DNA of 64,000 nt from Verrucomicrobiales bacterium (GTDB lineage: Bacteria > Verrucomicrobiota > Verrucomicrobiia > Verrucomicrobiales > Akkermansiaceae), in contig JBBSUD010000002.1 in assembly GCA_038235225.1 (NCBI GenBank), positions 16,270 through 80,269 of the forward strand. Reading direction: 5' to 3'. The position numbers and the translations under genes were made by a program. Below are positions 27,103-40,466 of the stretch, one piece after another. How positions within the stretch are numbered: the first letter of the stretch is position 1; every line of letters starts with the position of its first letter. The notes beneath the pieces were generated by a model. That model saw nothing but the letters and a program-made list of their open reading frames with translations, was not told the DNA's origin and did not search any database.

Positions 27103-28130
27103 TCAGGCCGGCTTGCCGAGTAGGCGGGTGGTCCGTCTCACTCCGAAGCGGCAGGCCGCTTGTTTCCACACGAGTCGGATTTCGTAGGTGTTGCCAGCGG
27201 CCAACTGCGAACTCGCGAAGTTCAACTGTTGCCAGCCGACTCTCTCCGCAGCCGCTTGATCACAGCAATCATCGACGACTTGCTGCCACAGCTTCCAGAC
27301 AGCGACGTGAGAAATGCCGAGTTCCCCCCCGATGCCGCGTTGTAACTTGTCACTCAACTTCAGTCGGGTGACGACAGCTCGTCGGAAAATGGTTCGGGTG
27401 TGCTGCACCATACGCTGACTGCGGAGAGGTTGGGGGCGACGGTTCTTTATCCAGCGGGGGCCATCGGATCCGCCCAAGAACCGGATCATCACGTCCATGG
27501 AGACGCTGTTATTCCGCGTTCCCTCGATCTTGGCGGGATCAAACTCGGCTTCGGCGATCTTCGGTAGCACTGCGGCCAAACCTTCTCCCCGGACGAGCCG
27601 CGCCAATTGCTGAAACGATCCCGCGCGGACGACCACCCGAGGACTCCACCCTTTCGCCGCGAGAAGCTCCGCGTAGGTCCGGGAGAACTGTCCGCCTGGC
27701 ATCAGCTCTCCACAGGGGTGTTTGGAGAAGAGGCTATCGATTCCCATATCGCCTTTCCAAGCCAGCATGGGCGCGGACATTGAGTAGCCGATTTTCCCGA
27801 GCGGATGGCATTTCATCCCGGCGGGAGCGGGGTCTTGACGGATGATCGCAAAATCCAACCTGCCGTCGGCGACGCAACGCGCTGCATCAAGGGTGCGGGA
27901 TTGCCCCAACTCCAGGACTACCTCGCCGAGAGCGCTTCGGCTCCCAGCCAGCTTTGGCAAGACGAGCCAGTCCACCACACTCGCGGATGCACCGATGCGC
28001 ACTTTCATCGGTCGCCCGGACATAGATTCCCGGAAATCATCCAACTCCGAGAAGTGTCGGCGGATAGTCCCGGCGAGCTGATGCCCTTCACCCGTGATCT
28101 CGGTGGTTTGGGGCGGTGCTGGTATCGGCT
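27103..28130 (-). pseudogene. LysR-family regulator relic: N-terminal HTH lost, C-terminus fused in frame to an unrelated HTH-like fragment
   Basis: Linker/effector domain ITGEGHQLA...VRIGASASVVDWLVLPKL...GRLDFAIIR...SFQQLARLVRGEGLAAVLP, with an in-frame TGA just upstream of the linker. Confidence 0.7.
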
Positions 28131-28413
28131 GCGATCATCTGATCCCGAACATTGGCAATCAGTGGCAGGGAGTTCGCGCCAATTACCCCGGGGGCGAAAT
28201 TGAACATGAGAATCGCTGCCACCCAAGCCGCCAGCCTTCCTTGCACGCACCAAGGATCCCCATCAGGATTTGAGGGAAATCGCGTTGAGCTCGGGCGCAT
28301 ATCGACGAGCGAACCCGCCTCGCCCGGGGATGTTCCGGCAGGGGCGTGATGCTCAACTTCGATTTCCACCGGCACTTTCTGATCCCCAAGACTTCCATTC
28401 CGGCTTCTAGATA

Positions 28414-30303
28414 GAGCCTGTCCCAGGAGCGGTGCTTTTTTATGATCGACGCAATAGGCGTTCAATCGAACACTTTCCGGATTCCGAATCGGTGAAAAGT
28501 TTGGCGAAAGTGGGGCTGGATTCGCTCATTTACGGGATTTTTCGCGTTTTCAGGTCCGGTGAGGACGCAGTGATCCCGGATCGACGGTGGCGATCCCGCT
28601 TCTGATGGCCCTGCGCTCCGCTATCAGCCCGCTCGCTCCATAGCCGCCCGCACCTTCTCTTCCTGTTCCGCTTTTCGCTTTTTCTCAGCCTCGGCCATGC
28701 GGGCTGCCACCCACAGGTTATGCGTGAGGACGGCCCAGCCGACGGCGACCTCCCGATGCTCGAAGCCTTTGGCTAACAGGGGACGACCGAGGAAACCATT
28801 CTTGAAAATGGCGATCCTTGCCTCGGTGCCGGCCCGGCGCTTGAGCCCCTCGCGGAAGCCTTTCTCGTTGACGAGCTTGTCGGAGAGTTCCTTCGGGTCG
28901 CGCGGACACAGGCCGTTGCCGATGCCTCGTTTTTCTAACATCGTCGTATTAACTTTACTGGCAAGACCGCGATCTCCCCAAACCTTGGCGATGGCGTGTT
29001 GTTGCTCGCCCACGAGCCGCTCAATGGCGGGCTTGATCAGCTTGGAGTCGCACGGGGTGTCTTGGTATAACTGGTAGTCGACGATGATGCCGTCGCCGTT
29101 TTCACCGAGCCAGAGTTTGTTTCCGAATTCGACTTTTGCACCAGCTTTGCCGCGTTGGATGACATTGATAGAGCTGTCATATAAACTCAGAATCTTGTCT
29201 TCATTGGCAACACTGCGACCACCAATGATGCGTTCGTGAGCTTGGTGGATGGCGGCAGGAAGTTGCTCCAACACGCTCTCAATGCGATGAACAATCTGTT
29301 GGGCTTGGCCTTCGCTCAGGTCGCTTTCCTCGCGGCGTGTCTTGAGTGCGTGGAGATGAGCCTTTGCGTGTTTGGCGATGGTATTGACGAAGGATTTCAT
29401 TTCGCGCAGCACTTTCTTGCGCTGTTTCTTGCCATCCTTCGCGTGAAATTTGGCGGTCATTTTCATGCACAACGTGTTCATTGTGCTGAGAAATGCGAGC
29501 GGTTCCTGAGGCATGCGGTTCTTGAGTCCATGCTGGCGGATGACAAGGGTGGCCTTCATCAAGGTGCGGGTGGCATCCCGCAATATCACCCAGTCCACGG
29601 GGAAATGAATGTCGGCCTTGAGGCAGGTGCTGTCGAAATAGATATTATCGAATCTGATAGGTTCTGCAAGTCCCAATGCTGCGGCAGGCGTCATTCCGGT
29701 GCTGTAATCCAGCACTTCTGATGCTAACAGCGCGGTGAGTTTCCCGTTGATCACCCGCACGGTTTGCTCGCTGGCCCAATGGCCGAAGCGGTCGCTGCTG
29801 CTCTTGGCGAACACCTTGACGCAATCGACCTCGCCGACATGCAGGAACCATTGAAGCAGCGAGCTGTCGGCGAGACGGGCGCAGAAGTCGCGGTGGTCGA
29901 GCCCCGTGAGTTGACGGGCGATGTTAGAGCGGAGTGCCAGGACGGTGCGAGAAGCGAAACGGTCGAGCTGTTTGGCACCGATGGCGTGGATATCGATCTG
30001 GCGCTCGGCGAGGACGAGGTTGAGGAATTCCTGCTCAAGGCCGGAGGAGCGGAGAATCGCGTCGATACGCTCGAACCGGGCGCGTTGCTCGCGGTAGTCC
30101 AAAGGACCGTAAACGCAAGGAAGTGCTGGACGAAGGGCGGGCTGGTAAGAGAAGGTGGTCACGGTTCGGGGCTGGATTTAGTCTGCTAACCAAATCATAG
30201 ACCCTGAATTTGGGGCATGGGAGCCTTTTTTGGCTCCCATGCCTTAATTTTTTGCCCGGCAAAGTGCTGTGCAACAAGGGGTTGTGGGGTTTGGGACAGG
30301 CTC
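28414..30303 (-). mobile_element. Intact 1890-bp insertion sequence (ISNCY family, probably ISDol1-like)
   Basis: 12-bp TIR GAGCCTGTCCCA (28414-28425) / TGGGACAGGCTC (30292-30303), 6-bp TSD TAGATA (28408-28413 and 30304-30309), and a single 512-aa DDE transposase. Confidence 0.9.
28624..30162 (-). CDS. DDE transposase
   Basis: YFDSTCLKADIHFPVDW, KILSLYD.S...I..GKAGAKVEFG, WGDRGLAS and RRAGTEARI.IFKN. Confidence 0.9.
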   Translation of the reverse strand: MTTFSYQPALRPALPCVYGPLDYREQRARFERIDAILRSSGLEQEFLNLVLAERQIDIHAIGAKQLDRFASRTVLALRSNIARQLTGLDHRDFCARLADSSLLQWFLHVGEVDCVKVFAKSSSDRFGHWASEQTVRVINGKLTALLASEVLDYSTGMTPAAALGLAEPIRFDNIYFDSTCLKADIHFPVDWVILRDATRTLMKATLVIRQHGLKNRMPQEPLAFLSTMNTLCMKMTAKFHAKDGKKQRKKVLREMKSFVNTIAKHAKAHLHALKTRREESDLSEGQAQQIVHRIESVLEQLPAAIHQAHERIIGGRSVANEDKILSLYDSSINVIQRGKAGAKVEFGNKLWLGENGDGIIVDYQLYQDTPCDSKLIKPAIERLVGEQQHAIAKVWGDRGLASKVNTTMLEKRGIGNGLCPRDPKELSDKLVNEKGFREGLKRRAGTEARIAIFKNGFLGRPLLAKGFEHREVAVGWAVLTHNLWVAARMAEAEKKRKAEQEEKVRAAMERAG

Positions 30304-30340
30304 TAGATATTGTTAGCCTGCCGACCCGGCTTCGGCTTCA

Positions 30341-31861
30341 TCACCGCTGCCATGCGATGATTTTTTTCATGATGGATGCGATGAATGGCGTGAGGCGGGC
30401 CTTGTTATAGAGATCCCCGGTTTTACGGATCGCCTCGGCTTGGGTGGGGTAGGGATGGATGCAGTTCGCGATTTTCCCGAGGCCGATGCCTTGGGTCATG
30501 GCAATGGAAATGGACGCAATCATATCCCCCGCGTTGGCGGCGACGATGGTGGCGCCGAGGATCTCGTCGCTGCCTTTCCTGACATGGATGCGGACGAATC
30601 CCTCGGTTTCGCCTTCGAGGATCGCTCGGTCCACACCGGACATCGGCTGGGTGAAGGTATCAACTTCGATGTCTTGTTCTCTGGCTTCTGCAGAGTTCAG
30701 CCCGATGCGTGCAAGCTCCGGCGAGGTATAAGTACACCATGGAATGACGAGGTCGCTATGTTTGACGCGACCGAAAAACAACGCATTGCGGACCACGGCG
30801 CGGGCCATGAAATCGGCGGCATGGGTGAATTGATAGGGAGAGCAGATATCGCCTGCGGCGAAGATGCGTTTGTGGGTGGTGCGGAAACGGTCGTCGATGG
30901 TCACGCCCTTTTTCGTGTGCTCCACACCGGCTTTTTCGAGATCGAGTCCTTCCACATTGGGTGCGCGGCCGGTCGCCACCAGGAGTTGATCCACGGTGAT
31001 GTCATAGCTGTCGTCTCCAGATTCCACGCGCATGCGGATGCCGCCATTGCCGCCGGGTGATAGTTTCAGTTTCCTGCCCGAGCCGAGGATTTTCACAGCA
31101 TCTCGGACAAGGTGCTTCTCGATAATTGCCGCGGCATCCGGCTCTTCCTTGTCGAGTATGCCGGATGAGGATTTGACGAGATAGGCTTCGGAACCGAGAC
31201 GCGCGAAAGCCTGCGCCATTTCGCAGCCGATAGGTCCCGCACCGATGACGCCGATGCGCTTCGGGCGTTCCGTTAGCGAGAAGATCGTTTCGTTGGTATG
31301 ATAGGAAACCGTGTCGAGTCCCTCGATCGGCGGCGCGGAAGCGCGTGCGCCGGTGCAGATGACAGCTTTGGAAAAATGCAGCTTCGCTCCGGCGACTTCG
31401 ATATGGGAGGAATCGATAAACTTTCCTTGGCCCAAGAATACGTAGATGCCGAGCGAGGTGTAGCGCTTCACCGAATCGTGGGGTGAAATGTCGCTGCGGA
31501 GCTTTCTCATGCGTTGCATGACTTTTGCGAAATCCACCTCGGTCCCTAGCGGCACGTTCACGCCGAAGCCCCCGGCATCTCGCACGGCGGCGGCGGCGCG
31601 GGCCGAGCTGATGATCGCCTTCGATGGCACGCAGCCGACATTCAGGCAGTCGCCACCCATGAACTGGCGCTCGATCAACGCGACCTTCGCCCCCAGCCCC
31701 GCCGCGGCGGATGCGGTGACAAGCCCGGCGGTGCCAGCACCTATGACGACGAGATCGTATTTCCCGGAAGGCACCGGGTTCGTCCAATCGGCGGGATGAA
31801 CGTTGGCCACGAGCTTCGCATTATACTCGTCATCGGGCTCCATACGGTGGGGCGTGCTCAT
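30341..31861 (-). CDS. MerA/LpdA-like FAD-dependent pyridine nucleotide-disulfide oxidoreductase (no C-terminal Cys-Cys)
   Basis: VIGAGTAG, GGDCLNVGCVPSK, GAGPIGCEMAQ, ATGRAPN, IFAAGD and IHPYPTQAE. Confidence 0.9.
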   Translation of the reverse strand: MSTPHRMEPDDEYNAKLVANVHPADWTNPVPSGKYDLVVIGAGTAGLVTASAAAGLGAKVALIERQFMGGDCLNVGCVPSKAIISSARAAAAVRDAGGFGVNVPLGTEVDFAKVMQRMRKLRSDISPHDSVKRYTSLGIYVFLGQGKFIDSSHIEVAGAKLHFSKAVICTGARASAPPIEGLDTVSYHTNETIFSLTERPKRIGVIGAGPIGCEMAQAFARLGSEAYLVKSSSGILDKEEPDAAAIIEKHLVRDAVKILGSGRKLKLSPGGNGGIRMRVESGDDSYDITVDQLLVATGRAPNVEGLDLEKAGVEHTKKGVTIDDRFRTTHKRIFAAGDICSPYQFTHAADFMARAVVRNALFFGRVKHSDLVIPWCTYTSPELARIGLNSAEAREQDIEVDTFTQPMSGVDRAILEGETEGFVRIHVRKGSDEILGATIVAANAGDMIASISIAMTQGIGLGKIANCIHPYPTQAEAIRKTGDLYNKARLTPFIASIMKKIIAWQR

Positions 31862-32469
31862 GTTTCCGTTATGTTCGGTCCTTCGGAATCATCAATTTTT
31901 CCCGACAGCGCGCGCTTGGCGATTTTGGTGATCCAGACGGTTACGATGATGGTGGCGACCAACCCGATTCCATAAAACACCTTCTGTGAGGTCGTCGTTT
32001 CGCTGGCGGCAACTTTAGCGATCGAGCCGAGATAAACATAAAGAATAGTCACCGGAAGCATGCCGATCCACGATGCACCGACGGCCTGCCAAAAGCCGAT
32101 CTTCGTGAGGCCGAGCGCGTAGTTGAGAAATGTGAATGGGAAAACGGGCGATAGCCTTAGCAGCATAATCATCTTCCAGCCTTCGCGACCGACCGCTTCG
32201 TCGATTGCCTTGAATTTCGGCTTATCCTTTAGTTTTTTATCGATCCAATTCCGCAGTGCGAACCGACCTAGCAGGAAGCTCACCGCGGCGGCGAGAGTTG
32301 AGGCGACGGAAACGAGCAGGGTTCCCTCTACCAGTCCGAAAATCGCCCCGGCGGAGAGTGTCAGGATACTGCCCGGCACGAATGCGACGGTTGCGCCCAC
32401 GTAAAGTAGGACAAAAAGCACGGGCGCCCAGATGCCTTGGGCCTGGACCCAATCGAGGATGTGTTGCAT
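31858..32469 (-). CDS. TVP38/TMEM64 (DedA/VTT) family membrane protein
   Basis: VPGSILTLSAGAIFG...LLRLSPVFPFTFLNYALGLTKI...IGMLP.TILYVYLG. Confidence 0.92.
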   Translation of the reverse strand: MQHILDWVQAQGIWAPVLFVLLYVGATVAFVPGSILTLSAGAIFGLVEGTLLVSVASTLAAAVSFLLGRFALRNWIDKKLKDKPKFKAIDEAVGREGWKMIMLLRLSPVFPFTFLNYALGLTKIGFWQAVGASWIGMLPVTILYVYLGSIAKVAASETTTSQKVFYGIGLVATIIVTVWITKIAKRALSGKIDDSEGPNITET

Positions 32470-32475
32470 GCGGAG

Positions 32476-33777
32476 TTATAGGTAAGTTATGGATCGAACC
32501 CGCGCGATCCACCGGGGCGGGACGCTCAGGAAATAGGCAGCAAGCATCAATTGATGTCGAAGGAATGTGCGCACGATGCCGCCCGTTTCCCAGCGCCGCG
32601 GCGATGTCAAAGCTGCCTGCGGCGCCGTCCGGACCGGGCCAAGCCGCTTGAGCCGGCGGACCAGATGGAGGTCCTCCATCGCCGGCCAATCGGGAAATCC
32701 TCCGAGGTGGCGGAAGATGCTCCGGCGGATGAACAACCCTTGGTCGCCATAAGGCATACCTAGCAGATCGCAGCGCAGATGCACGAGTGACTCGATCAAG
32801 GGCGCGGCAGCGAGATCTCCCGCAAGCTGGAATCGGAATGCGCCTGCGCTCGTCCCGGGCTTCTGCAATATCCGGCCCACTACTTCACCATAGTCTAGCG
32901 GCGGCAAAGTATCCGCATGGAGAAACAACAGGAACTCGCCCGTCGCCATGGCGGCGGCCACATTCATTTGCGTGGACCGCCCTTTCGGAGTTTCGATCAC
33001 GCGGACGCCCGCTTTTCCGGCTATCGCTTTGGTTTGGTCCGTGCTGCCTCCGTCCGCGATGATGATTTCGTGCGGCGGCGATTCCAAGAGCCGCTCGAGA
33101 AGTATGGAAATCCAAGTAGCCTCATTCAGTGTGGGAATGATGACAGAGAGCGAATTTCCCACGGTGAGCGCGGCATTTGCAGCCGGGAGATCGTCCGGCG
33201 TGTCCACATCCGGGCGGGCGTCCAAAAGAGCGACATGCGCTCCGCACGCGGCGGCGGCAGCCAGCGATTGATTTAGAACCTGCGGTCCGCCCCATTCGAT
33301 GTTAGTGAAAATTCCGGGACACGGTTTATTCAGACCGACGAGATAATAGCCGCCATCCGCCGCGGGGCCGAAAACCAGATCCGCGCGTTCCAGCGCTTGG
33401 AATGCCTTCGCGAGAAGCGGCTCGTCGATCGACGGGCAGTCGGTTCCGGTGATGACCACGCGGCGGGCGCCATCGGCAAACGCCTGCTCCACTGCGGCGT
33501 GCAATCGGGCTCCCAAATCGCCATTTCCCTGCACCCGGCAATCGATATCTCCCAACCATATCTTTCCTTCGACGGCGGTCCCGCCTTCCAAGCGAATCTG
33601 CAAGCGGGTGCCGGGATGCATCATCGCGTAAGAAGAGGCCCGACCTATGGCATGCCGTGCGAGGCGGTCGTGGAAATCCGCAGCACCAATCGTGCCCAGC
33701 GCGGGGATCAATCGTGTCTTGTTCCGGCCTTCACAGGGAAGGCGCGTCATCACGATGATGGTGTCTTGCCGCTTCAC
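32476..33777 (-). CDS. Fused arsenosugar-cluster transferases: TIGR04282 (DUF2064) plus TIGR04283 (GT2)
   Basis: N-half GRNKTRL...QGNGDLGARL...TGTDCP...GPAADGGYYLVGL...DVDTPDDL. C-half SVIIPTLNE..DGGSTD..GRSTQMN..LFLHADT..PYGDQGLFIRR..MED..SPRRWE. The GTG start at 33777 overlaps the DUF547 stop. Confidence 0.88.
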   Translation of the reverse strand: MKRQDTIIVMTRLPCEGRNKTRLIPALGTIGAADFHDRLARHAIGRASSYAMMHPGTRLQIRLEGGTAVEGKIWLGDIDCRVQGNGDLGARLHAAVEQAFADGARRVVITGTDCPSIDEPLLAKAFQALERADLVFGPAADGGYYLVGLNKPCPGIFTNIEWGGPQVLNQSLAAAAACGAHVALLDARPDVDTPDDLPAANAALTVGNSLSVIIPTLNEATWISILLERLLESPPHEIIIADGGSTDQTKAIAGKAGVRVIETPKGRSTQMNVAAAMATGEFLLFLHADTLPPLDYGEVVGRILQKPGTSAGAFRFQLAGDLAAAPLIESLVHLRCDLLGMPYGDQGLFIRRSIFRHLGGFPDWPAMEDLHLVRRLKRLGPVRTAPQAALTSPRRWETGGIVRTFLRHQLMLAAYFLSVPPRWIARVRSITYL

Positions 33778-34565
33778 TGTTTGTTGAGATCCCAATTGTA
33801 GTCGGTATATTTGATGCCGAGTCCGCCGCGGAGGATGACTTTGCCTTGTTCATCGTTGAAAAGCGGTGCCACGAATTTTTCGACAGAGCCGGACTTGCCG
33901 GTAAAGTCCTGTTTGAACCACTTGAAGATCGGCGAGAGATAGAGCACTCCGCTTTTAGCATCGACTCGGTTCTTCGAGCTATCGCCCAAGAAAATCCTGC
34001 CTTGCTCATTGAGTTGAGGATCGAGCTTGGAGGCTTGGTAGGCTTCCGCACGCAGGGACGGACAACCGATCGATGCACAATTAATGGCGAAGTGGATGCG
34101 CGGGTCATTGAACTTCGGTCGGAGCAGATCGTTCTCGATATAGTCGAGGGTTTGCTTCTTTCCGAACAGCCGGACGACGGGTTGCTTCCATGGCCCGCTG
34201 AAAAGGCCGCCGATGTCTTTGATGCTGTCCACCGGATAGTGATCGATTACGAGCTTGAGAGTCGCGGCGTTATAGAGATTGATGAGATATGCCATCCGCT
34301 CATCGCGGGGCCAGCCGTTGAAGCTGGATTCGGACACGGCAGCAAGCGAATCCAGATAAACATCGAGCGGTTTTGGATTCCTTTTCAATCCTGCGTAATC
34401 GACCTTCTTGCCTTTCACATGCGCCCCGAGAATCAAAGTTAAGGCGGAGTGCGATCGGTCGAAATCCTGGCGGGTGTTGGCAATGGTTTGGAGCTCCTGT
34501 GCCTGCGATACCACGGTGAGTATGGGGAACAAAGCGAGAGCGGTGGCGAATGTGAGATTTTTCAT
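33774..34565 (-). CDS. DUF547 domain secreted protein
   Basis: Signal peptide; AYLINLYNA.T, LDYIENDLLRP, DPRIHFAINCASIGCP and YLSPIFKWFKQDF. Confidence 0.9.
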   Translation of the reverse strand: MKNLTFATALALFPILTVVSQAQELQTIANTRQDFDRSHSALTLILGAHVKGKKVDYAGLKRNPKPLDVYLDSLAAVSESSFNGWPRDERMAYLINLYNAATLKLVIDHYPVDSIKDIGGLFSGPWKQPVVRLFGKKQTLDYIENDLLRPKFNDPRIHFAINCASIGCPSLRAEAYQASKLDPQLNEQGRIFLGDSSKNRVDAKSGVLYLSPIFKWFKQDFTGKSGSVEKFVAPLFNDEQGKVILRGGLGIKYTDYNWDLNKQ

Positions 34566-34571
34566 GATGAT

Positions 34572-35531
34572 TCAGGCATTAGCTGTTTCCAGCGCGCCGC
34601 TGCAACTGCTGCCGTGGCCGGCGGTGCAGCCGAAGCAATGATTTGCGGTGAGGATCGGGAGGTCCGCCATCGAGTCCGGAGTGATGTCCCAGAGATAAAG
34701 TTTTTGGTCATTGCGCTTTTGTTGCATGCGGAGCATTTGGTTGAAATCGCAGTCGAAGACCTCGCCCTCGTAACCGATATTGATGGTGGACCGGCACATA
34801 AGTCCCCCGACCGTGGCGGGGTTGAAACTATTCGCCAGCAATTCCATATAGTAATCCCACTGTCCGTGCTCGCGGAGGTCCACCGCGAAGCGGGCGATCG
34901 GGAGATTCGTGATCGCAAAGAGGCGGGTGAAAACGATGCCGTAGCGTTTCTTTAGCTCGTCCTTGTAGTCCGCTTCAAGTTCTGCTTGGTCGGGCGGCAG
35001 CTTCGCGCCGATGGGATTGTAAACGAGGGTCAGCGGGAGGCGGGTGCCATAGCCAGCGGCATTGAGTTTCTTCAGCGCGGAAATGCTCTTTTGGAAAACT
35101 CCGTTGCCGCGCTGGGAATCGACATTGTCTTCCAGATAGCAGGGCAGGGATGCGACAACTTCCACTTCATGCCGGGCGAGAAACTCCGGCAGATAGGCAT
35201 GGCTTTTCGTCTCGATGATCGTGAGATTGTTTCGGTCGATGACATGCGAACCGACCGAGCGGGCCGTCTCAACGAAATACCTGAAATGCTCGCTGATTTC
35301 AGGCGCGCCGCCGGTGATGTCCACGGTCGCGGGCCGATGTTCCACAATCCAGGCGCCGACTTTGCGGGCAGTTTCCCGATCCATCATCTCGGTGCGGGTC
35401 GGGCCGGCATCGACGTGGCAGTGGGTGCAGGTCTGGTTGCATTTGCGACCGACATTGATCTGCAGCGTCTCGAAGCGGCCGCGATCCAGCGGAACTTTGT
35501 TTTGGTGGAGAAGTGTCTGGAAGTTATTCAT
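34572..35531 (-). CDS. arsS: Arsenosugar biosynthesis radical SAM protein ArsS (TIGR04167-type)
   Basis: TLQINVGRKCNQTCTHCHVDAGP (CxxxCxxC), DITGGAPE, ASLPCY, LVYNP, GLMCR, DCDFNQML and HCFGCTAGHGSSC. Confidence 0.92.
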   Translation of the reverse strand: MNNFQTLLHQNKVPLDRGRFETLQINVGRKCNQTCTHCHVDAGPTRTEMMDRETARKVGAWIVEHRPATVDITGGAPEISEHFRYFVETARSVGSHVIDRNNLTIIETKSHAYLPEFLARHEVEVVASLPCYLEDNVDSQRGNGVFQKSISALKKLNAAGYGTRLPLTLVYNPIGAKLPPDQAELEADYKDELKKRYGIVFTRLFAITNLPIARFAVDLREHGQWDYYMELLANSFNPATVGGLMCRSTINIGYEGEVFDCDFNQMLRMQQKRNDQKLYLWDITPDSMADLPILTANHCFGCTAGHGSSCSGALETANA

Positions 35532-35581
35532 GAGAGAAGTGAATCGGTGACCGCTTTGGATGTGAGGATCGGGCGGCGTTT

Positions 35582-36409
35582 CTATTCGGATATGTTTTTC
35601 CGGAGCGGCGGGATGCGGGTGAATGCTTTTGCAGATGGCGGATCCTCATCGAGTTTCGAGAAGACGCGCTGGCAGGAATCGCTCTCGAAGAAGGCGTCGC
35701 AGCAGGCGGATTCGAGGATTTCTCCGTGGCCGTTGTCCGTGCAGAGGCAGGCGATCCAGTCGGTCAGGCGGCGGGCTTGGTCGAGATTGTGGGTGACGAG
35801 GATGACGCTGCGGGTGGCTCGCATACTCAGAATCCCCGCCTCCACGGCTTCCGCAGCGCGCGGATCGAGGGCGCTCGTCGGTTCGTCCATGAGCACGATT
35901 TCCGGATCGACGGCCAAGGTGCGGGCAAGACATAGCTGCTGCTGCTGGCCGATGGACAGACGGCGCGCGGGTTCCGTTAGCCGGTCCTTCACCTCATCCC
36001 AGAGAGCGGCTTCGCGGAGCGATTTTTCGATAAGCTCGCCGCGGTCGCGTTTGTTTAGTCGGCGGAGCCGACGGGCACCGAAGATGACGTTATCTGCGAT
36101 GCTGGCGGGAAACACGGCGGGCTGTTGGAATATCATGCCGATGCGCTCGCGGAGGGCGTCGGGATCGACGGCGCGGTCCAGGATTTCGCAGCCATGGAAG
36201 CGGATGCTGCCGGTGACCCGGAAGCCGGGCTGCAGCTCCAGCAGTCGGTTGATGGATCGCAGCAAAGTGCTCTTGCCCGCGCCGGACGGGCCGAGGATGC
36301 CGAGCACTTGTCCGGCTTCGAGCGTTAGATTGACCGACCCGATGATGGCGCGGCCGCCCACGGAGACGCCGAGGTTGCGGATTTCCAGGATGGGGGATCG
36401 ATCAGACAT
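35582..36409 (-). CDS. pstB: PstB-like ABC transporter ATPase with Cys-rich C-terminus
   Basis: GPSGAGKSTLLRSINRL, IGMIFQQP, LREAALWDEVKDRL, LSIGQQQ.LCLAR, MDEPTSALDP and VTHN. Confidence 0.85.
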   Translation of the reverse strand: MSDRSPILEIRNLGVSVGGRAIIGSVNLTLEAGQVLGILGPSGAGKSTLLRSINRLLELQPGFRVTGSIRFHGCEILDRAVDPDALRERIGMIFQQPAVFPASIADNVIFGARRLRRLNKRDRGELIEKSLREAALWDEVKDRLTEPARRLSIGQQQQLCLARTLAVDPEIVLMDEPTSALDPRAAEAVEAGILSMRATRSVILVTHNLDQARRLTDWIACLCTDNGHGEILESACCDAFFESDSCQRVFSKLDEDPPSAKAFTRIPPLRKNISE

Positions 36410-37256
36410 GGTTGGCGGCATCGTGGAATTTCCTGCGGAAGGGTATAGCTAACAGACTTGCCAGGGTAACCAAGGAAACAAGCACCAGCGCGGTGCCCCA
36501 GAGATTGGTCCGGCTGCTTTCCTGAAACGAATCCTGGGCGAGGATGAATATGTGATAGGGAAGCGCGAGTATGGGTTGTTCCTTGATGCCGATGGGGATG
36601 GTGGCGCCGGAAAAGATGGTGGCGACGAAAAGGATCGGCGCCGTTTCCCCGGCGGCTCTGGCGAGGCCGAGCAAGGTGCCGCTAACGAGCGAGGAAGCGC
36701 AGTGTGGCATGATGATACTTCGGACGATCCGTCCGCGGCGCAATCCCAATGCGAACGCGCTATCGAGATACCGCGGCTCGATCGCGCCGATCCGCTGGGC
36801 GGCCGCTATGGCGATGGTGGGAACGATCATGATGCCTAGCAGGATGCCGCCCGCGAGCCAGGATTTCCCCCAGTCGAAGATGCGGGTGAAGACTAGCAGA
36901 CCGAGGATACCGAAGATGATGGAAGGTATCGCATTGAATAACTGAAGCACGAACCCTAACAGGCGCTGGCGGCGGGATCCGAGTGGCAGGAGAAATGAAT
37001 GGACCAATGCAAGTGAGATGGCGATGGGCAGCGCGACCGCCGCGGCGGTGGAGATGAGGATGATGGTGCCCACGATCTGCCAGAGAATGCCGCCGCTCGC
37101 ACCGGCTTCCGAGGTGGCGGTGGAAATGAAGTTCCAATCCACCACGTCCCGGCCTTTCCAAATGAGGACTGCCGCTACCGTGAGGGAAAACAACAACACC
37201 ACCGATGCGGCGGCAGCGGTGAGGATCGACGTCAATGATGCTAACGATTTTCTCAT
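36402..37256 (-). CDS. pstA: PstA-like ABC permease
   Basis: IPSIIFGILGLLVF, LAGGILLGIMIVPTI, LGLARAAGETAPILF and LPYHIFILA. Confidence 0.88.
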   Translation of the reverse strand: MRKSLASLTSILTAAAASVVLLFSLTVAAVLIWKGRDVVDWNFISTATSEAGASGGILWQIVGTIILISTAAAVALPIAISLALVHSFLLPLGSRRQRLLGFVLQLFNAIPSIIFGILGLLVFTRIFDWGKSWLAGGILLGIMIVPTIAIAAAQRIGAIEPRYLDSAFALGLRRGRIVRSIIMPHCASSLVSGTLLGLARAAGETAPILFVATIFSGATIPIGIKEQPILALPYHIFILAQDSFQESSRTNLWGTALVLVSLVTLASLLAIPFRRKFHDAANHV

Positions 37257-38167
37257 GAGGAAATTCTCCCGATGCGGCGCAGCAGGGTGCCGGTGGCGTC
37301 GAAAAGCGCGGATAGAACAAGTAGAATCAGTCCGAGAGAAAGCATGGCTCCCCAATGCAGCGGCGTGCCGAGCGCAATGTGGGTTTCGGGTCCGCCGAGC
37401 TTGCTGGTAAGTGTTTGGCCGGGCTCGATGAGCGGCCGGAGGCTGAAGAGTTTTTCGGGAAACTGATTGTCCAATCGGCCCACCACGAGGAAGACGGCGA
37501 TCGTTTCACCTAGAGCGCGGCCGGTGCCTAACAAGGCAGCGCCGGTGATGCCGGGCCATGCCTGGGGAAGCACCACATGTATTACTGTTTCCGCACGGCT
37601 CAGCGCCAGACCGCGGGCGGCGATGCGCTGCTCCTGCGGGACTCCGCGGAGTGCGTCTTCGGAGAATGTGGTGACGGTTGGGAGTATCATCACCGCGAGC
37701 AGGACGCCGGCGGTTAGAAGCATGTCGCCACTGAGTATATCGAATGCGATTAGCCGCTCGGCCATCCACTCGCGCAGGAAAATGACACCGAAAAGGCCGT
37801 AAACAACCGATGGCACGGCAGCCAAAAACTCGACGGCGGTCTTCACCGGCAACCGCAGCCGGGGAGTGAGAAATTCGGATATGAAAACCGCTGCCGCGAT
37901 GCCGACCGGTGCGGCGAGGACGAGGGCGATCACCGCGACGACGAGACTGCCATAGATCATGCCCGCGGCACCGAAGATGTTGTCCCGATAGAACCACTCG
38001 CGTCCTTTGACCAGCTCGCTACCGATCTTGGAAATCGCGGGCCACGCCTGCTGGATCCAGAGAGCGAGAACCGCGAGCAGGCCGAGGAAAAATCCGCTGG
38101 AAATCGTCCATACGCCGACAGTGACGGCATCGGGCCGCCGCCTCGCTGTCAGCTCGTGAGCGCTCAT
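37253..38167 (-). CDS. pstC: PstC-like ABC permease
   Basis: MIYGSLVVA..APVGIAAAVFISE, VEFLAAVPSVVYGLFG, AVMILPT, GRALGETIAV and TLTSKL. Confidence 0.88.
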   Translation of the reverse strand: MSAHELTARRRPDAVTVGVWTISSGFFLGLLAVLALWIQQAWPAISKIGSELVKGREWFYRDNIFGAAGMIYGSLVVAVIALVLAAPVGIAAAVFISEFLTPRLRLPVKTAVEFLAAVPSVVYGLFGVIFLREWMAERLIAFDILSGDMLLTAGVLLAVMILPTVTTFSEDALRGVPQEQRIAARGLALSRAETVIHVVLPQAWPGITGAALLGTGRALGETIAVFLVVGRLDNQFPEKLFSLRPLIEPGQTLTSKLGGPETHIALGTPLHWGAMLSLGLILLVLSALFDATGTLLRRIGRISS

Positions 38168-39021
38168 TGTTTCTTAAGATCCGCTAGAGAAAGATAGCCG
38201 TGCTTGTGAACCAGCTTCTGACCTTCCGGGCCTAGCAGGAAATCGATCAGTGCCTTGGCATGACCGGCTGGCTCGCCATTGGTGATGACCCATAGCGAAC
38301 GGCTCAGCGGATAGTCACCCGCGAAGATATGTGCTGCGGTCGGTTCTACGATTTTGTCGTCATCAAGTTCCACGGATAGGGCGAAAACCTTGATTCCATC
38401 GACCCACGCGGCGGACAGTTGGGAAAGCGCGCCGCGGCTGCCGGCCACCTTGTTGCGCGCTTCCTCATTCGCTCCGACTTCTGGGTGCGCGACGGACGGC
38501 GCTTTGTCGGCCTTGCCGTAGAGCCAGTTCGCGAAGACCTCCCAAGTGCCGCGTCCCGGCTCCTTGTTGAAAAATGCGATCCTGCGGTCGGGGCCGCCGA
38601 TCTGCTTCCAGTTGGTTACTTTTTTCTCGTAGATCCGTTGCATGGTTTTGCGGGAAATCGATTTCACCCCGCCATCCCAGACATCTTTGGAAACGATCAT
38701 TGCCACCGCGTCCTCGCCGATTTTCACCGGTGTGAAAACGATGTTCGGATACTTCATATGGTCGGCTTCATTGAGCGGGCGGGATGACATGGCCATATCC
38801 ACCCGGCCGTCGCCGAGTGCGGAAATCCCGCCGGAACTGCCGCCTTGGGTATCCACTTGGATGGTGATGTTCTTTTCCTTTTTAAGGATTTCCGCAGCTT
38901 CGGAAACCACGGGATTCACCGTGGTCGATCCATTGACGCGAACGATGTCTTGTGCGGAGACAAACGTACTCGCTGTGGCGAAAGCGAATGCGAGTAAAGG
39001 GAGGGATTGCATGAATTTCAT
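38164..39021 (-). CDS. pstS: PstS-like periplasmic oxyanion-binding protein
   Basis: Signal peptide; GSTTV, GGSSGGI, MSSRPL, IGEDAVA, IYEKKVTNWKQIGGPD and DYPLSRSLW. Confidence 0.85.
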   Translation of the reverse strand: MKFMQSLPLLAFAFATASTFVSAQDIVRVNGSTTVNPVVSEAAEILKKEKNITIQVDTQGGSSGGISALGDGRVDMAMSSRPLNEADHMKYPNIVFTPVKIGEDAVAMIVSKDVWDGGVKSISRKTMQRIYEKKVTNWKQIGGPDRRIAFFNKEPGRGTWEVFANWLYGKADKAPSVAHPEVGANEEARNKVAGSRGALSQLSAAWVDGIKVFALSVELDDDKIVEPTAAHIFAGDYPLSRSLWVITNGEPAGHAKALIDFLLGPEGQKLVHKHGYLSLADLKKQ

Positions 39022-39040
39022 CAGTTGAATCGAGTTGATC

Positions 39041-40204
39041 TCAGCAGCAGCCGCCGGCGTCGCAGCAGTTCGATGCGGCGGTGGTGACATGATAATCGCG
39101 GCCCTTGGTTTCCTGCGGGTGGCGGACAGCGGTGCGGTTGCAATCGAAGGGCGCCGCGTCTGCCAGCGGTATGTCTGTTAGCGGATCGATGAAAGAGAAG
39201 TAGCCGGAATACGGCGCTTTTTTGTATAAGTTGTATGTCTTGTCGCAGACCGCATAGCGCTTGCCGCGCTCCATGGCGTGGCCGTCGTCAACGAGGACTT
39301 TCAGGAAAGGGCCGTTGTAAATGACCGCCTGATTCCGCTCGAAGCACGGACCTTGTTTTCCTTTCCACGCTTGGATCGTGACTGAGCGGAACTCGATCCC
39401 TTCGACCGTTTGCCATGGCGTTTCGTCGCGCTTCAGGATTTCGATTCCATGAAATCCCGCATCTGCAAACGCTTTGAGAAACCCTTCCTCGGTATAGGCG
39501 CCGCTGATGCAGCCGCTCCAGAGATGGGGATCGTCCTGGAGATGGCTCGGGATTTCCTCGTCGGATACGATGTCGGAAATCACCGCCCGGCCGCCAACTT
39601 TCAGGACGCGGAAGATCTCCTCGAAAAGCTGACGCTTCAGGTGGTTCTCCACGAGATTGAGCACGCAGTTAGAGACTACGGCGTCGATGCTGTCGCTGGC
39701 GACGAGCGGGTGCTTCACGCGGAGATCGGCGGCGAGCGCGTCGGCCGCGAGATAGGAATTCGCGCTGGAAATCGGATTCCGGGCGAGTTCGCGGTCGAGA
39801 ATTTCCAAGTCGAGCGCGAGATCTTGGATGCGGCCCTTGCGGAACTCGACATTCGCGTGGCCGATATTTTCCGCGACGATCGGCGCATTCCGGCGGGCGA
39901 CTTCCAGCATGTCGTCGGTCATGTCCACGCCGATGACGCGGCCGGTCGGGCCGACGACCTGGGACGCGATGAAGCAGATTTTCCCGGTCCCCGAGCCGAG
40001 ATCGAGCACGGTCTCGCCGGGATGCAGGTGCTTCGACGGGTCGCCGCAGCCGTAGTCCTTTTCGATGACCTCGGCCGGAATGGCCTTGAGAAACTGCGGA
40101 TCGTAATCGACCGGGCAGCACAAAGCGGCCTCGGGGGCGTGGGCGGCGGCGGCGTAGCGATCGCGGGTGGCGGCTTCGGACGAGGTGCTGGCTGGGGCGA
40201 TCAT
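39041..40204 (-). CDS. arsM: Arsenite S-adenosylmethionine methyltransferase (ArsM)
   Basis: LCCP, YGCGDP, VLDLGSGTG, VIGVDMT, VSNCVLNL and WSGCISGA, i.e. the four conserved ArsM Cys positions. Ends in CCDAGGCC. Confidence 0.9.
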   Translation of the reverse strand: MIAPASTSSEAATRDRYAAAAHAPEAALCCPVDYDPQFLKAIPAEVIEKDYGCGDPSKHLHPGETVLDLGSGTGKICFIASQVVGPTGRVIGVDMTDDMLEVARRNAPIVAENIGHANVEFRKGRIQDLALDLEILDRELARNPISSANSYLAADALAADLRVKHPLVASDSIDAVVSNCVLNLVENHLKRQLFEEIFRVLKVGGRAVISDIVSDEEIPSHLQDDPHLWSGCISGAYTEEGFLKAFADAGFHGIEILKRDETPWQTVEGIEFRSVTIQAWKGKQGPCFERNQAVIYNGPFLKVLVDDGHAMERGKRYAVCDKTYNLYKKAPYSGYFSFIDPLTDIPLADAAPFDCNRTAVRHPQETKGRDYHVTTAASNCCDAGGCC

Positions 40205-40466
40205 GGTTGTGGGAAAATCTGGCCGGGATGCTGGCTTGGGCATCGGTTCGCTTGGGATAACGAAATCTCCAGATATAACGGATTTGCGTGCGCAAAAATC
40301 GGATTGCTCGCTGGAGGATCGCCATGCGTCCCGGTCGGCAGGAAATCTGAGAGCACGCGAACGCCCGCTCTATTCCTCGAAGATCCGGTTTGCCGCTTGT
40401 CGGCGGGATTTGTCCGGAGACTCCGCCGGGCGTGGACACGCGGATACCGGTGTGGAATCGTGGAAG

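What the first reader, a model, noticed from the sequence alone, without database searches (positions are those of the whole stretch)
30341..32469. MerA-like flavoprotein plus DedA/TVP38 pair as candidate As(V) reductase and arsenolipid flippase
Seen: redox-active CLNVGC and an HPYPT motif, but no C-terminal Cys-Cys and no NmerA domain; the gene is ATGA-coupled to TVP38. Known: true MerA needs the C-terminal CC, ArsM and ArsS need trivalent substrates, and DedA-family proteins act as lipid scramblases/transporters. Inference: the reductase regenerates As(III)/DMA(III) in place of the missing ArsC, and TVP38 moves a lipid-linked arsenosugar.
Basis: inference. Interest (0 to 1): 0.55.

Follow-up and report, generated by a model that had tools for sequence, protein, structure and literature searches.

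The report
Membrane reductase pair in arsenosugar operon
A mercury-reductase-like flavoenzyme and its DedA-type membrane partner end an arsenic-sugar operon, and across genomes this uncharacterised pair follows the cluster's sugar-transfer genes rather than the arsenic enzyme ArsS, so an arsenic-reducing role is possible but unproven.

Summary
A 203-aa VTT/DedA gene overlaps by ATGA a 506-aa class I flavoprotein with CLNVGC and HPYPT, no C-terminal Cys pair and no NmerA.

The pair ends a low-GC, IS-flanked operon: ArsM, PstSCAB-like, ArsS, DUF547, fused TIGR04282/TIGR04283, VTT, flavoprotein.

The flavoprotein belongs to the uncharacterised subfamily NF004991. It is neither a true MerA nor the E3 enzyme.

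- Co-occurrence with arsS exceeds chance (odds ratios 5-17 in two phyla).
- That link disappears once TIGR04282 is accounted for. Among Planctomycetota, 35 of 36 flavoprotein genomes have TIGR04282. Within TIGR04282 genomes, flavoprotein and ArsS are independent (OR 0.92).
- Many genomes have flavoprotein plus glycosyltransferase but no ArsS.
- VTT follows the flavoprotein: adjacent in 50 of 76 loci, often fused, and absent from 20 ArsS loci of genomes without the flavoprotein.
- ArsC is not missing: an Acr3-ArsC pair lies on another contig.

Best reading: a membrane-held NAD(P)H reductase module that is an optional accessory of the glycosyltransferase/DUF547 core. Its substrate is unknown; here it may be an arsenical.

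The scan has met this module before on other DNA. I found no paper on the arsenic link.

The parts
30341..31861 (-). Flavoprotein (P0001, 506 aa): class I pyridine-nucleotide disulfide oxidoreductase of subfamily NF004991
   Evidence: PF07992 186 bits and PF02852 101 bits. NF004991 766 bits, above the 620 cut-off. MerA TIGR02053 366.6, below 454. LipDH TIGR01350 341.9, below 408.8. AF2 model pLDDT 91.9.
31631..31648 (-). Redox-active CLNVGC (C72, C77), preceded by the family-specific Asp71 (GGDC)
   Evidence: Translation. C72 and C77 are in at least 90% and D71 in all of 32 aligned relatives. Among 101 representatives: 86/93, 88/95 and 85/93.
30443..30457 (-). HPYPT (H469-T473). Tyr471 occupies the position of the acid-base His of LipDH, as in MerA (PYLT)
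   Evidence: Alignments to 5x1y and 1zk7 (MerA) and to 2eq6 and 1ebd (LipDH). Y471, P472 and T473 are invariant in A2. Y is present in 139 of 151 representatives.
30344..30415 (-). Family-specific C-terminal tail (residues 483-506; consensus D-x-Y-N-R-T-R-L-T-P followed by a basic helix ending W-R-R). It stands where MerA has its Cys-Cys tail
   Evidence: Conservation tables. The AF2 model gives helices 476-489 and 492-505. No CC occurs in any of 45 tails printed.
31763..31861 (-). Family-specific N-terminal extension (residues 1-33; consensus P-x-D-x-H/Y-N-x-x-L-x-x-x-V-H-P-x-D-W-x-N-P). It stands where MerA has NmerA and forms the linker in fused VTT::flavoprotein forms
   Evidence: Helix 12-21 has pLDDT about 95. 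NF004991 profile positions 4-508 are matched.
31858..32469 (-). VTT/DedA (TVP38-type) membrane protein (P0002, 203 aa, no cysteine). It lacks the N-terminal transmembrane helix that all 29 aligned relatives have
   Evidence: PF09335 107.6 bits at residues 31-149. Alignment A1. UptA model only 19.6 bits against a 250 cut-off.
31858..31861 (-). ATGA overlap: VTT stop codon and flavoprotein start codon
   Evidence: Sequence.
32476..33795 (-). Fused TIGR04282 (DUF2064, CofC-like) and TIGR04283 (GT2) protein. Across genomes this is the gene the flavoprotein follows most closely
   Evidence: TIGR04282 185.9 bits and TIGR04283 232.1 bits. Co-occurrence.
33774..34565 (-). DUF547 protein (P0272) with a signal peptide and an invariant C-x4-C-P
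   Evidence: PF04784 86 bits. Alignment A3. AF2 pLDDT 91.
34572..35531 (-). ArsS radical SAM enzyme
   Evidence: TIGR04167 426.8 bits, above the 300 cut-off.
35582..39090 (-). PstS/PstC/PstA/PstB-like ABC transporter genes
39041..40243 (-). ArsM-like As(III) SAM methyltransferase, the first gene of the operon
   Evidence: NF040538 331 bits and NF008823 206 bits, both below their cut-offs.
28624..30162 (-). ISNCY/IS5-type transposase directly downstream of the operon
   Evidence: NF033593 188.9 bits, below its cut-off. The operon has G+C 0.57-0.61 against 0.64-0.66 in the flanks.
30210..30247 (.). 16-bp G+C-rich hairpin between the flavoprotein stop codon and the transposase gene
   Evidence: A T-run follows only on the + strand, so its role as terminator of the operon is not shown.

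Best explanation
The two genes form a translationally coupled membrane reductase module at the 3' end of a horizontally acquired ten-gene operon: ArsM, PstSCAB-like, ArsS, DUF547, TIGR04282::TIGR04283, VTT, flavoprotein.

Shown:
- The flavoprotein is a class I FAD/NAD(P)H dithiol oxidoreductase of the uncharacterised subfamily NF004991.
- Like MerA, it has Tyr in place of the catalytic His of disulfide reductases.
- It lacks MerA's Cys-Cys tail and NmerA. In their place it has a conserved N-terminal helix and a conserved basic C-terminal helix.
- Its usual neighbour is a DedA/VTT protein, often fused in front of it. In other lineages a DEP membrane-targeting domain takes that place.
- Across genomes the flavoprotein is almost confined to genomes carrying TIGR04282. 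Given TIGR04282, it is independent of ArsS.

Inferred:
- The enzyme sits at the cytoplasmic face of the membrane, held by or working with the DedA protein.
- It passes two electrons from NAD(P)H through FAD and C72/C77 to a soft electrophile rather than to an ordinary disulfide.
- It is an optional accessory of the glycosyltransferase/DUF547 core pathway.
- In this operon the substrate would most plausibly be a pentavalent (arsinoyl/oxo) arsenical intermediate or its thiol adduct, delivered or removed by the DedA protein. Its identity is unknown.
For: Family and active site:
- NF004991 scores 766 bits.
- Y471 aligns to the MerA Tyr and to the LipDH His.
- C72, C77, D71, Y471-P-T and the N- and C-terminal extensions are conserved.
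- The AF2 model is confident and places a final helix at 492-505.

Partner:
- VTT lies directly upstream on the same strand in 50 of 76 loci from several phyla.
- Fused VTT::flavoprotein proteins exist: P0028, P0124, P0127. Open frames of 714-819 aa occur in many Planctomycetota.
- Fusion to PF07992+PF02852 is the commonest fusion of COG0398 DedA proteins (PMC10127716).
- DEP::flavoprotein fusions exist, one in a eukaryotic assembly.
- VTT is absent from 20 ArsS loci of genomes without the flavoprotein.

Context:
- The only recurrent functional neighbours in 80 loci are VTT, DUF547, ArsM, ArsS and DUF2064+GT2.
- TIGR04282 is present in 73 of 80 flavoprotein genomes, against ArsS in 41 of 80.
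- Planctomycetota: 35 of 36 flavoprotein genomes have TIGR04282 (OR 82). Conditional on TIGR04282, the odds ratio with ArsS is 0.92.
- Verrucomicrobiota: TIGR04282 in 15 of 16 flavoprotein genomes against 2 of 39 arbitrary genomes.
- Close relatives lie in extended clusters with PNP_UDP_1, FA_hydroxylase and LCAT-like genes.
Against: - No member of the subfamily was shown here to be characterised, and no assay exists for any arsenical.
- In most of the 80 flavoprotein loci no arsenic or glycosyltransferase gene lies within reach (only 15 of 80 have one), even though TIGR04282 is present elsewhere in the genome. Linkage is therefore mostly at genome level.
- Some contexts point to other metals: ChrA/ChrB with an RND pump, and an MbnB/HvfC-type cluster.
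- The co-occurrence tests are not corrected for phylogeny. Many genomes are incomplete MAGs.
- The window's VTT lacks the first transmembrane helix of its relatives and might be impaired.
- Membrane location is inferred from fusions only.
Confidence: 0.55

Rival explanations
1. The flavoprotein reduces As(V), MAs(V) or DMAs(V) to supply trivalent substrates to ArsM and ArsS in place of ArsC. The VTT protein flips a lipid-linked arsenosugar.
For: - ArsS uses DMAs(III) (PMC13598754).
- The pair lies in ArsM/ArsS operons in several phyla, and raw co-occurrence with ArsS is above chance.
- The GT2 half resembles polyprenyl-phosphate glycosyltransferases such as AglJ and PpgS, by weak hits.
- Some DedA proteins flip undecaprenyl phosphate (PMC10127716).
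- Lipid-enzyme genes (LCAT-like, FA_hydroxylase) lie in related clusters.
Against: - Given TIGR04282, the flavoprotein is independent of ArsS (OR 0.92).
- 12 of 36 flavoprotein-bearing Planctomycetota and 9 of 15 Verrucomicrobiota genomes have the glycosyltransferase but no ArsS.
- 74 of 118 ArsS genomes lack the flavoprotein.
- The genome has Acr3-ArsC elsewhere.
- VTT never accompanies ArsS without the flavoprotein (0 of 20).
Confidence: 0.15
2. A broad metal(loid) detoxifying reductase acting on Hg(II), U(VI), Cr(VI) or Se/Te oxyanions, like the MerA-like Slr1849 of Synechocystis. Its place in arsenic clusters would be one of several stress contexts.
For: - MerA is the closest solved relative (5x1y, E 9e-80), and the protein has the MerA-type Tyr.
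- Slr1849 is reported to reduce Hg(II) and uranyl (PMC4307280, PMC6741143).
- A 79%-identical homologue lies beside ChrB/ChrA, an RND pump and an MFS gene. Another lies beside an MbnB/HvfC/DoxX cluster.
- The conserved basic tail could bind oxyanions (inference).
Against: - It has no Cys-Cys tail and no equivalent of MerA Tyr194.
- It scores below the MerA cut-off.
- I did not test whether Slr1849 belongs to NF004991.
- The near-obligate genome-level tie to TIGR04282 is not expected of a general detoxifying enzyme.
- Metal genes are not recurrent neighbours in the 80 loci.
Confidence: 0.15
3. A thiol-redox supply line. The flavoprotein reduces a small disulfide or thiol carrier. The DedA protein moves it across the membrane to keep the exported DUF547 protein (invariant C-x4-C-P) reduced.
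For: - DUF547 is a frequent neighbour (21 of 80 loci), is exported, and has two invariant cysteines.
- Plant class IV glutaredoxins join GRX, DEP and DUF547 in one protein (PMC13621322). DEP::flavoprotein fusions exist. The same three functions therefore recur together.
Against: - The acid-base His used by the disulfide reductases aligned here (LipDH) is replaced by Tyr.
- The VTT protein has no cysteine.
- DUF547 also accompanies ArsS without the flavoprotein (8 of 20 loci).
- No carrier molecule is known.
Confidence: 0.1
4. An ordinary housekeeping dihydrolipoamide dehydrogenase (as JGI names homologues) or a genuine mercuric reductase (as NCBI names homologues).
For: Database names of homologues. 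Overall similarity to both families.
Against: - It scores below both curated cut-offs.
- It lacks the catalytic His of LipDH and the Cys-Cys tail of MerA.
- The genome has a true LipDH on contig C50 (TIGR01350, 506 bits).
- No mer genes lie nearby.
Confidence: 0.03

Closest known systems
Mercuric reductase MerA (Tn501 core 1zk7; Lysinibacillus 5x1y)
   Same: Class I FAD/NAD(P)H fold. Redox-active C-x4-C. Tyr in the P-Y-x-T motif where disulfide reductases have the acid-base His. Best-scoring solved relative (E 9e-80).
   Different: No C-terminal Cys-Cys, no NmerA, no Tyr194 equivalent. Asp instead of Thr before the first Cys. Own N-terminal helix and basic C-terminal helix. Below the TIGR02053 cut-off. 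Partner is a DedA protein, not MerT/MerP.
COG0398 DedA proteins fused to PF07992+PF02852 (noted by Todor et al. 2023, PMC10127716)
   Same: The same pairing of domains. Here they are two ATGA-coupled genes, and close homologues are fused (P0028, 77% identity).
   Different: The paper records the fusion and relates it to aerobic metabolism. It gives no function and no link to arsenic or to TIGR04282/TIGR04283.
Slr1849, the MerA-like enzyme of Synechocystis PCC 6803
   Same: A MerA-like flavoprotein outside a mer operon. Reported to reduce Hg(II) and U(VI) with NADPH (PMC4307280).
   Different: Whether it belongs to NF004991 was not tested here. It is regulated by a MerR-type protein, and no DedA or arsenic context is reported in the papers I could read.
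ArsM/ArsS arsenosugar pathway with TIGR04282/TIGR04283 (NCBIfam 'arsenosugar biosynthesis' set)
   Same: The window has the whole set in one operon.
   Different: The VTT-flavoprotein pair is not part of the described pathway. It follows TIGR04282 rather than ArsS.
ArsC arsenate reductases (glutaredoxin type and LMWP/thioredoxin type)
   Same: Would share only the proposed reaction.
   Different: Unrelated folds and mechanism. A candidate LMWP-type ArsC is encoded elsewhere in this genome, next to ACR3.

Membership tests
Class I pyridine-nucleotide disulfide oxidoreductases | FAD/NAD(P)H domain (PF07992, PF00070) plus dimerisation domain (PF02852) and a redox-active C-x4-C in the FAD domain | tested here: met
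   186, 66 and 101 bits. C72 and C77.
NF004991 (PRK06370.1-3, 'FAD-containing oxidoreductase') | Full-length match above the curated cut-off | tested here: met
   766 bits against 620, profile positions 4-508 of 509. Only one such gene in the genome.
MerA (TIGR02053) | Score above the curated cut-off | tested here: not met
   366.6 against 454.45.
MerA (TIGR02053) | C-terminal Cys-Cys pair that hands Hg(II) to the active site | tested here: not met
   The protein ends ...KKIIAWQR. No CC in the tails of 45 relatives printed.
MerA (TIGR02053) | Tyr in place of the acid-base His (Tn501 Tyr535) | tested here: met
   Y471 aligns to the Y of PYLT in 5x1y and 1zk7.
MerA (TIGR02053) | Second active-site Tyr (Tn501 Tyr194; numbering from my own knowledge) | tested here: not met
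   That column aligns to Val or Ser in P0001. In the family it is mostly Ala or Val.
Dihydrolipoamide dehydrogenase (TIGR01350) | Score above the cut-off, and the His of the H-P-T-x-x-E dyad | tested here: not met
   341.9 against 408.8. The His is replaced by Tyr. A true LipDH lies on contig C50.
DedA / VTT (PF09335) | VTT domain above the gathering score | tested here: met
   107.6 against 33.9. The conserved R-L-x-P...P-F...N...G-x-T motifs are present.
DedA subfamily COG0398 | Assignment to the subfamily whose members fuse to PF07992+PF02852 | not tested
   Inferred from fused homologues and PMC10127716. No COG model was available.
Undecaprenyl-phosphate flippase UptA (NF052604) | Score above the cut-off | tested here: not met
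   19.6 against 250.
Arsenosugar-type gene cluster | ArsS (TIGR04167), TIGR04282 and TIGR04283 together, with ArsM | tested here: met
   426.8, 185.9 and 232.1 bits, all above their cut-offs. ArsM-like at 331 bits, below its cut-off.
Arsenate reductase ArsC | ArsC/Spx fold (PF03960) or LMWP fold with catalytic Cys | tested here: not met
   No such hit for P0001 or P0002. A candidate ArsC lies elsewhere in the genome.

The most novel reading that the evidence does not exclude
The VTT-flavoprotein pair, working with exported DUF547 and the TIGR04282/TIGR04283 enzymes, is a membrane redox-and-transport step of a lipid- or carrier-linked sugar pathway. ArsS supplies only one of that pathway's inputs. 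In arsenic-fed cells the flavoprotein would reduce the As(V) arsinoyl centre (or DMAs(V)/MAs(V)). It would then be the first identified bacterial reductase for pentavalent organoarsenicals, and it would give the first function to COG0398 DedA proteins.
Probability: 0.15. Interest if true: 0.8.

Novelty: new variant of a known kind. Interest (0 to 1): 0.5.

Why it matters
Three points are open.
- To my knowledge (not checked in the literature here), no bacterial enzyme that reduces pentavalent methylated arsenicals has been identified.
- The steps after ArsS in arsenosugar and arsenolipid synthesis have not been worked out biochemically.
- COG0398 DedA proteins have no established function, although their fusion to this type of reductase has been noted.

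This operon, and the finding that the reductase pair follows the TIGR04282/TIGR04283 genes rather than ArsS, tell experimenters which genes to delete together. They also warn that the name 'arsenosugar glycosyltransferase' may be too narrow: about a third of TIGR04282 genomes sampled have no ArsS.

Tried and rejected
1. Three-cysteine As(III) site (C72, C77 plus C467 next to the HPYPT motif). C467 is Val, Thr or Ala in most relatives. Rejected.
2. Complex prediction of flavoprotein plus VTT with alignments. No verdict: score 0.00 against a mark of 0.32. This is not evidence either way.
3. Fold of DUF547. The model is confident (pLDDT 91), but Foldseek against the PDB gives nothing below E 0.6, and the wide VIA search has a best Z of 5.0. 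No assignment.
4. Amphipathic membrane helix at the C-terminus. The hydrophobic moment is 0.44, and several internal segments score higher. I describe it only as a conserved basic helix.
5. Literature. No paper joins arsenosugar with DUF547, or with 'gene cluster' plus 'mercuric reductase'. The primary Slr1849 paper (PMC3754753) is not held.
6. Regulator. No ArsR or other Pfam family was found in ORFs upstream of ArsM.
7. Electron donor to ArsS. Disfavoured, because the ArsS reaction is redox-neutral (PMC13598754) and class I disulfide reductases are not known radical-SAM reductants (my own knowledge).
8. Housekeeping E3 or true MerA. Rejected.
Full report
**Observation.**
- On the minus strand, ORF 31858-32469 encodes a 203-aa protein with a single VTT/DedA domain (PF09335, 107.6 bits).
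- ORF 30341-31861 encodes a 506-aa class I pyridine-nucleotide disulfide oxidoreductase (PF07992, PF00070, PF02852).
- The VTT stop codon overlaps the flavoprotein start codon in ATGA.
- The flavoprotein carries GGDCLNVGCVPSK (C72, C77) and CIHPYPTQAE (residues 467-476). It ends in ...KKIIAWQR without cysteines and has no HMA/NmerA domain.

**Surroundings.**
- The pair closes a co-directional string of genes: ArsM-like methyltransferase, PstS/C/A/B-like transporter, ArsS (TIGR04167, 427 bits), DUF547, and one protein fusing TIGR04282 with TIGR04283.
- The string has 0.57-0.61 G+C against 0.64-0.66 on both sides.
- An ISNCY/IS5-type transposase gene follows it.
- Neither the flavoprotein subfamily nor ArsS was found in 31 other genomes of the same family. 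The operon was probably acquired horizontally.
- The genome also has ACR3 followed by an LMWP-type arsenate reductase gene on another contig. ArsC is therefore missing from the operon only.
- A bona fide dihydrolipoamide dehydrogenase lies on contig C50.

**What the flavoprotein is.**
- It scores 766 bits on NF004991, an NCBI subfamily named only 'FAD-containing oxidoreductase' (cut-off 620). It stays below the cut-offs of MerA (367 against 454) and LipDH (342 against 409).
- The best solved relative is a MerA (5x1y, E 9e-80).
- In the alignments, Tyr471 stands where LipDH has its acid-base His and where MerA has Tyr. The column of MerA's second Tyr holds Val or Ser. The Cys-Cys tail is absent.
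- Across 150 representatives at 50% identity, several features are conserved: C72, C77, Asp71 and Y471-P-T; an N-terminal extension (P-x-D-x-H/Y-N...V-H-P-x-D-W-x-N-P); and a C-terminal tail (D-x-Y-N-R-T-R-L-T-P followed by a basic helix).
- C467 is not conserved, so a three-cysteine arsenite site is excluded.
- An AlphaFold model is confident (pLDDT 91.9). It makes the N-terminal helix 12-21 and a last helix 492-505.
- That the missing His argues against an ordinary disulfide substrate, and that the basic tail might bind an anionic substrate, are both inferences.

**The partner.**
- I fetched 80 loci encoding homologues of 59-77% identity. They come from Planctomycetota, Verrucomicrobiota, Desulfobacterota, Myxococcota and Proteobacteria.
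- A VTT gene lies directly upstream on the same strand in 50 of the 76 loci with enough upstream DNA.
- Fused VTT::flavoprotein proteins are common. A published survey lists this as the commonest fusion of COG0398 DedA proteins, without a function (PMC10127716).
- Other homologues carry an N-terminal DEP domain instead. One of these is in a eukaryotic assembly. DEP domains have been proposed to target proteins to distinct membrane sites (PMC13621322).
- In 20 ArsS loci taken from genomes without the flavoprotein, ArsM (11), DUF547 (8) and TIGR04282 (7) recur, but VTT never does.
- VTT therefore belongs to the reductase, not to ArsS.
- The window's VTT lacks the first transmembrane helix that all 29 aligned relatives have.

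**Association with arsenic genes.**
- Clustering all neighbours of the 80 loci gave only these recurrent functional families: VTT (43 loci), DUF547 (17), ArsM (9), ArsS (9) and DUF2064+GT2 (8).
- In 401 Verrucomicrobiota genomes, the flavoprotein is in 16, ArsS in 19 and both in 6 (0.76 expected). The two genes are adjacent in 3.
- In 401 Planctomycetota genomes, the counts are 73, 118 and 44 (21.5 expected; OR 5.2). At least 14 genomes have the two within 10 kb.

**The decisive twist.**
- TIGR04282 is present in 73 of the 80 flavoprotein genomes. ArsS is present in only 41.
- I took a subsample of 160 Planctomycetota genomes. The flavoprotein occurs in 36, ArsS in 53 and TIGR04282 in 72.
- 35 of the 36 flavoprotein genomes and 48 of the 53 ArsS genomes have TIGR04282.
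- Within the 72 TIGR04282 genomes, flavoprotein and ArsS coincide 23 times against 23.3 expected (OR 0.92).
- In Verrucomicrobiota, TIGR04282 is in 14 of 15 other flavoprotein genomes, in 13 of 13 genomes with ArsS only, and in 2 of 39 arbitrary genomes. In several ArsS-free genomes it lies next to the flavoprotein gene.
- The reductase pair and ArsS are therefore two separate, optional additions to a core formed by the TIGR04282/TIGR04283 genes, often with DUF547.
- This argues against a dedicated role in feeding trivalent arsenic to ArsS. The ArsS reaction is moreover redox-neutral once DMAs(III) is available (PMC13598754).
- Caveats: the tests are not corrected for phylogeny, many genomes are MAGs, and sub-threshold TIGR04282 hits were counted. 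Using only hits above the cut-off still gives OR 11.

**Other contexts.**
- The closest homologue (80% identity) lies in ArsS-DUF547-x-VTT-LCAT-like-flavoprotein.
- A fused homologue lies in a larger cluster. It holds a Pst-like transporter, FA_hydroxylase, a PNP_UDP_1 nucleosidase-type gene, DUF547, DUF2064+GT2 and a hydrolase.
- A 79%-identical homologue stands alone beside ChrB/ChrA and an RND pump. Another lies beside an MbnB/HvfC/DoxX set.
- A general metal(loid) role therefore stays possible. The MerA-like Slr1849 of Synechocystis reduces Hg(II) and uranyl (PMC4307280). Whether it belongs to NF004991 was not tested.

**Verdict.**
- The pair is real. It is a conserved membrane-linked reductase module of unknown substrate.
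- It is neither MerA nor LipDH.
- An arsenical substrate is plausible in this operon but not shown. A role as ArsC substitute is unlikely.
- The scan has reported the same module on other DNA several times.
- I found no paper on the arsenic link.

Noticed in passing
window 33774-34565 (-), P0272: The DUF547 protein has a Sec-type signal peptide and invariant motifs: I-N-x-Y-N-A, P-R-I-H-F, C-x4-C-P and D-Y-D-W-x-L-N. A confident AF2 model (pLDDT 91) has no clear match in the PDB. Plant class IV glutaredoxins fuse GRX, DEP and DUF547, and DEP::flavoprotein fusions exist. A thiol-redox part, a membrane-targeting part and DUF547 therefore recur together across kingdoms.
   Followed up: partly
window 32476-33795 (-) and genomes G441-G840: TIGR04282 acts as the hub of the gene set. 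About a third of TIGR04282-positive Planctomycetota sampled (24 of 72) have no ArsS, so the name 'arsenosugar biosynthesis glycosyltransferase' may be too narrow.
   Followed up: partly
window 31858-32469 (-): The window's VTT protein starts 6 nt after the glycosyltransferase stop codon. It lacks the N-terminal transmembrane helix present in all 29 aligned relatives. It may have been truncated when the pair joined the operon.
   Followed up: partly
window 28000-40300: The whole operon has low G+C (0.57-0.61 against 0.64-0.66 in the flanks) and ends at an ISNCY/IS5-type transposase gene (28624-30162). A strong 16-bp hairpin lies at 30210-30247. Neither ArsS nor the flavoprotein was found in 31 genomes of the same family.
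   Followed up: partly
own genome, contig C77 (L090:430-1935): A canonical ACR3 arsenite efflux gene is followed by an LMWP-type arsenate reductase gene. It lies apart from the organoarsenic operon.
   Followed up: yes
L113:8001-10016 (GCA_000142905.1) and L112:2836-4824: DEP::flavoprotein fusions of this subfamily occur in a eukaryotic assembly, whose neighbours include a TIM-GAPDH fusion and DHFR-TS. They also occur on a metagenomic contig next to SelR/MsrB.
   Followed up: no
L114:8586-9983 and L115:1405-2985: Related clusters contain an LCAT-like acyltransferase/phospholipase gene between VTT and the flavoprotein. They also contain FA_hydroxylase and a PNP_UDP_1 nucleosidase-type gene. The last is a candidate for removing adenine from the ArsS product.
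   Followed up: no
G410 (C1 about 527-532 kb and C6 about 318-322 kb); G809 (C3 and C40): Two Planctomycetota genomes each carry two separate ArsS-flavoprotein clusters. G410 has three flavoprotein paralogues.
   Followed up: no
window about 31180-31200 (-), residues 226-234 of P0001: At the end of the second strand of the NAD(P)H-binding fold the family consensus has Glu (L-x-E). P0001 has Lys-Ser-Ser (LVKSSS), which may mean a preference for NADPH.
   Followed up: no
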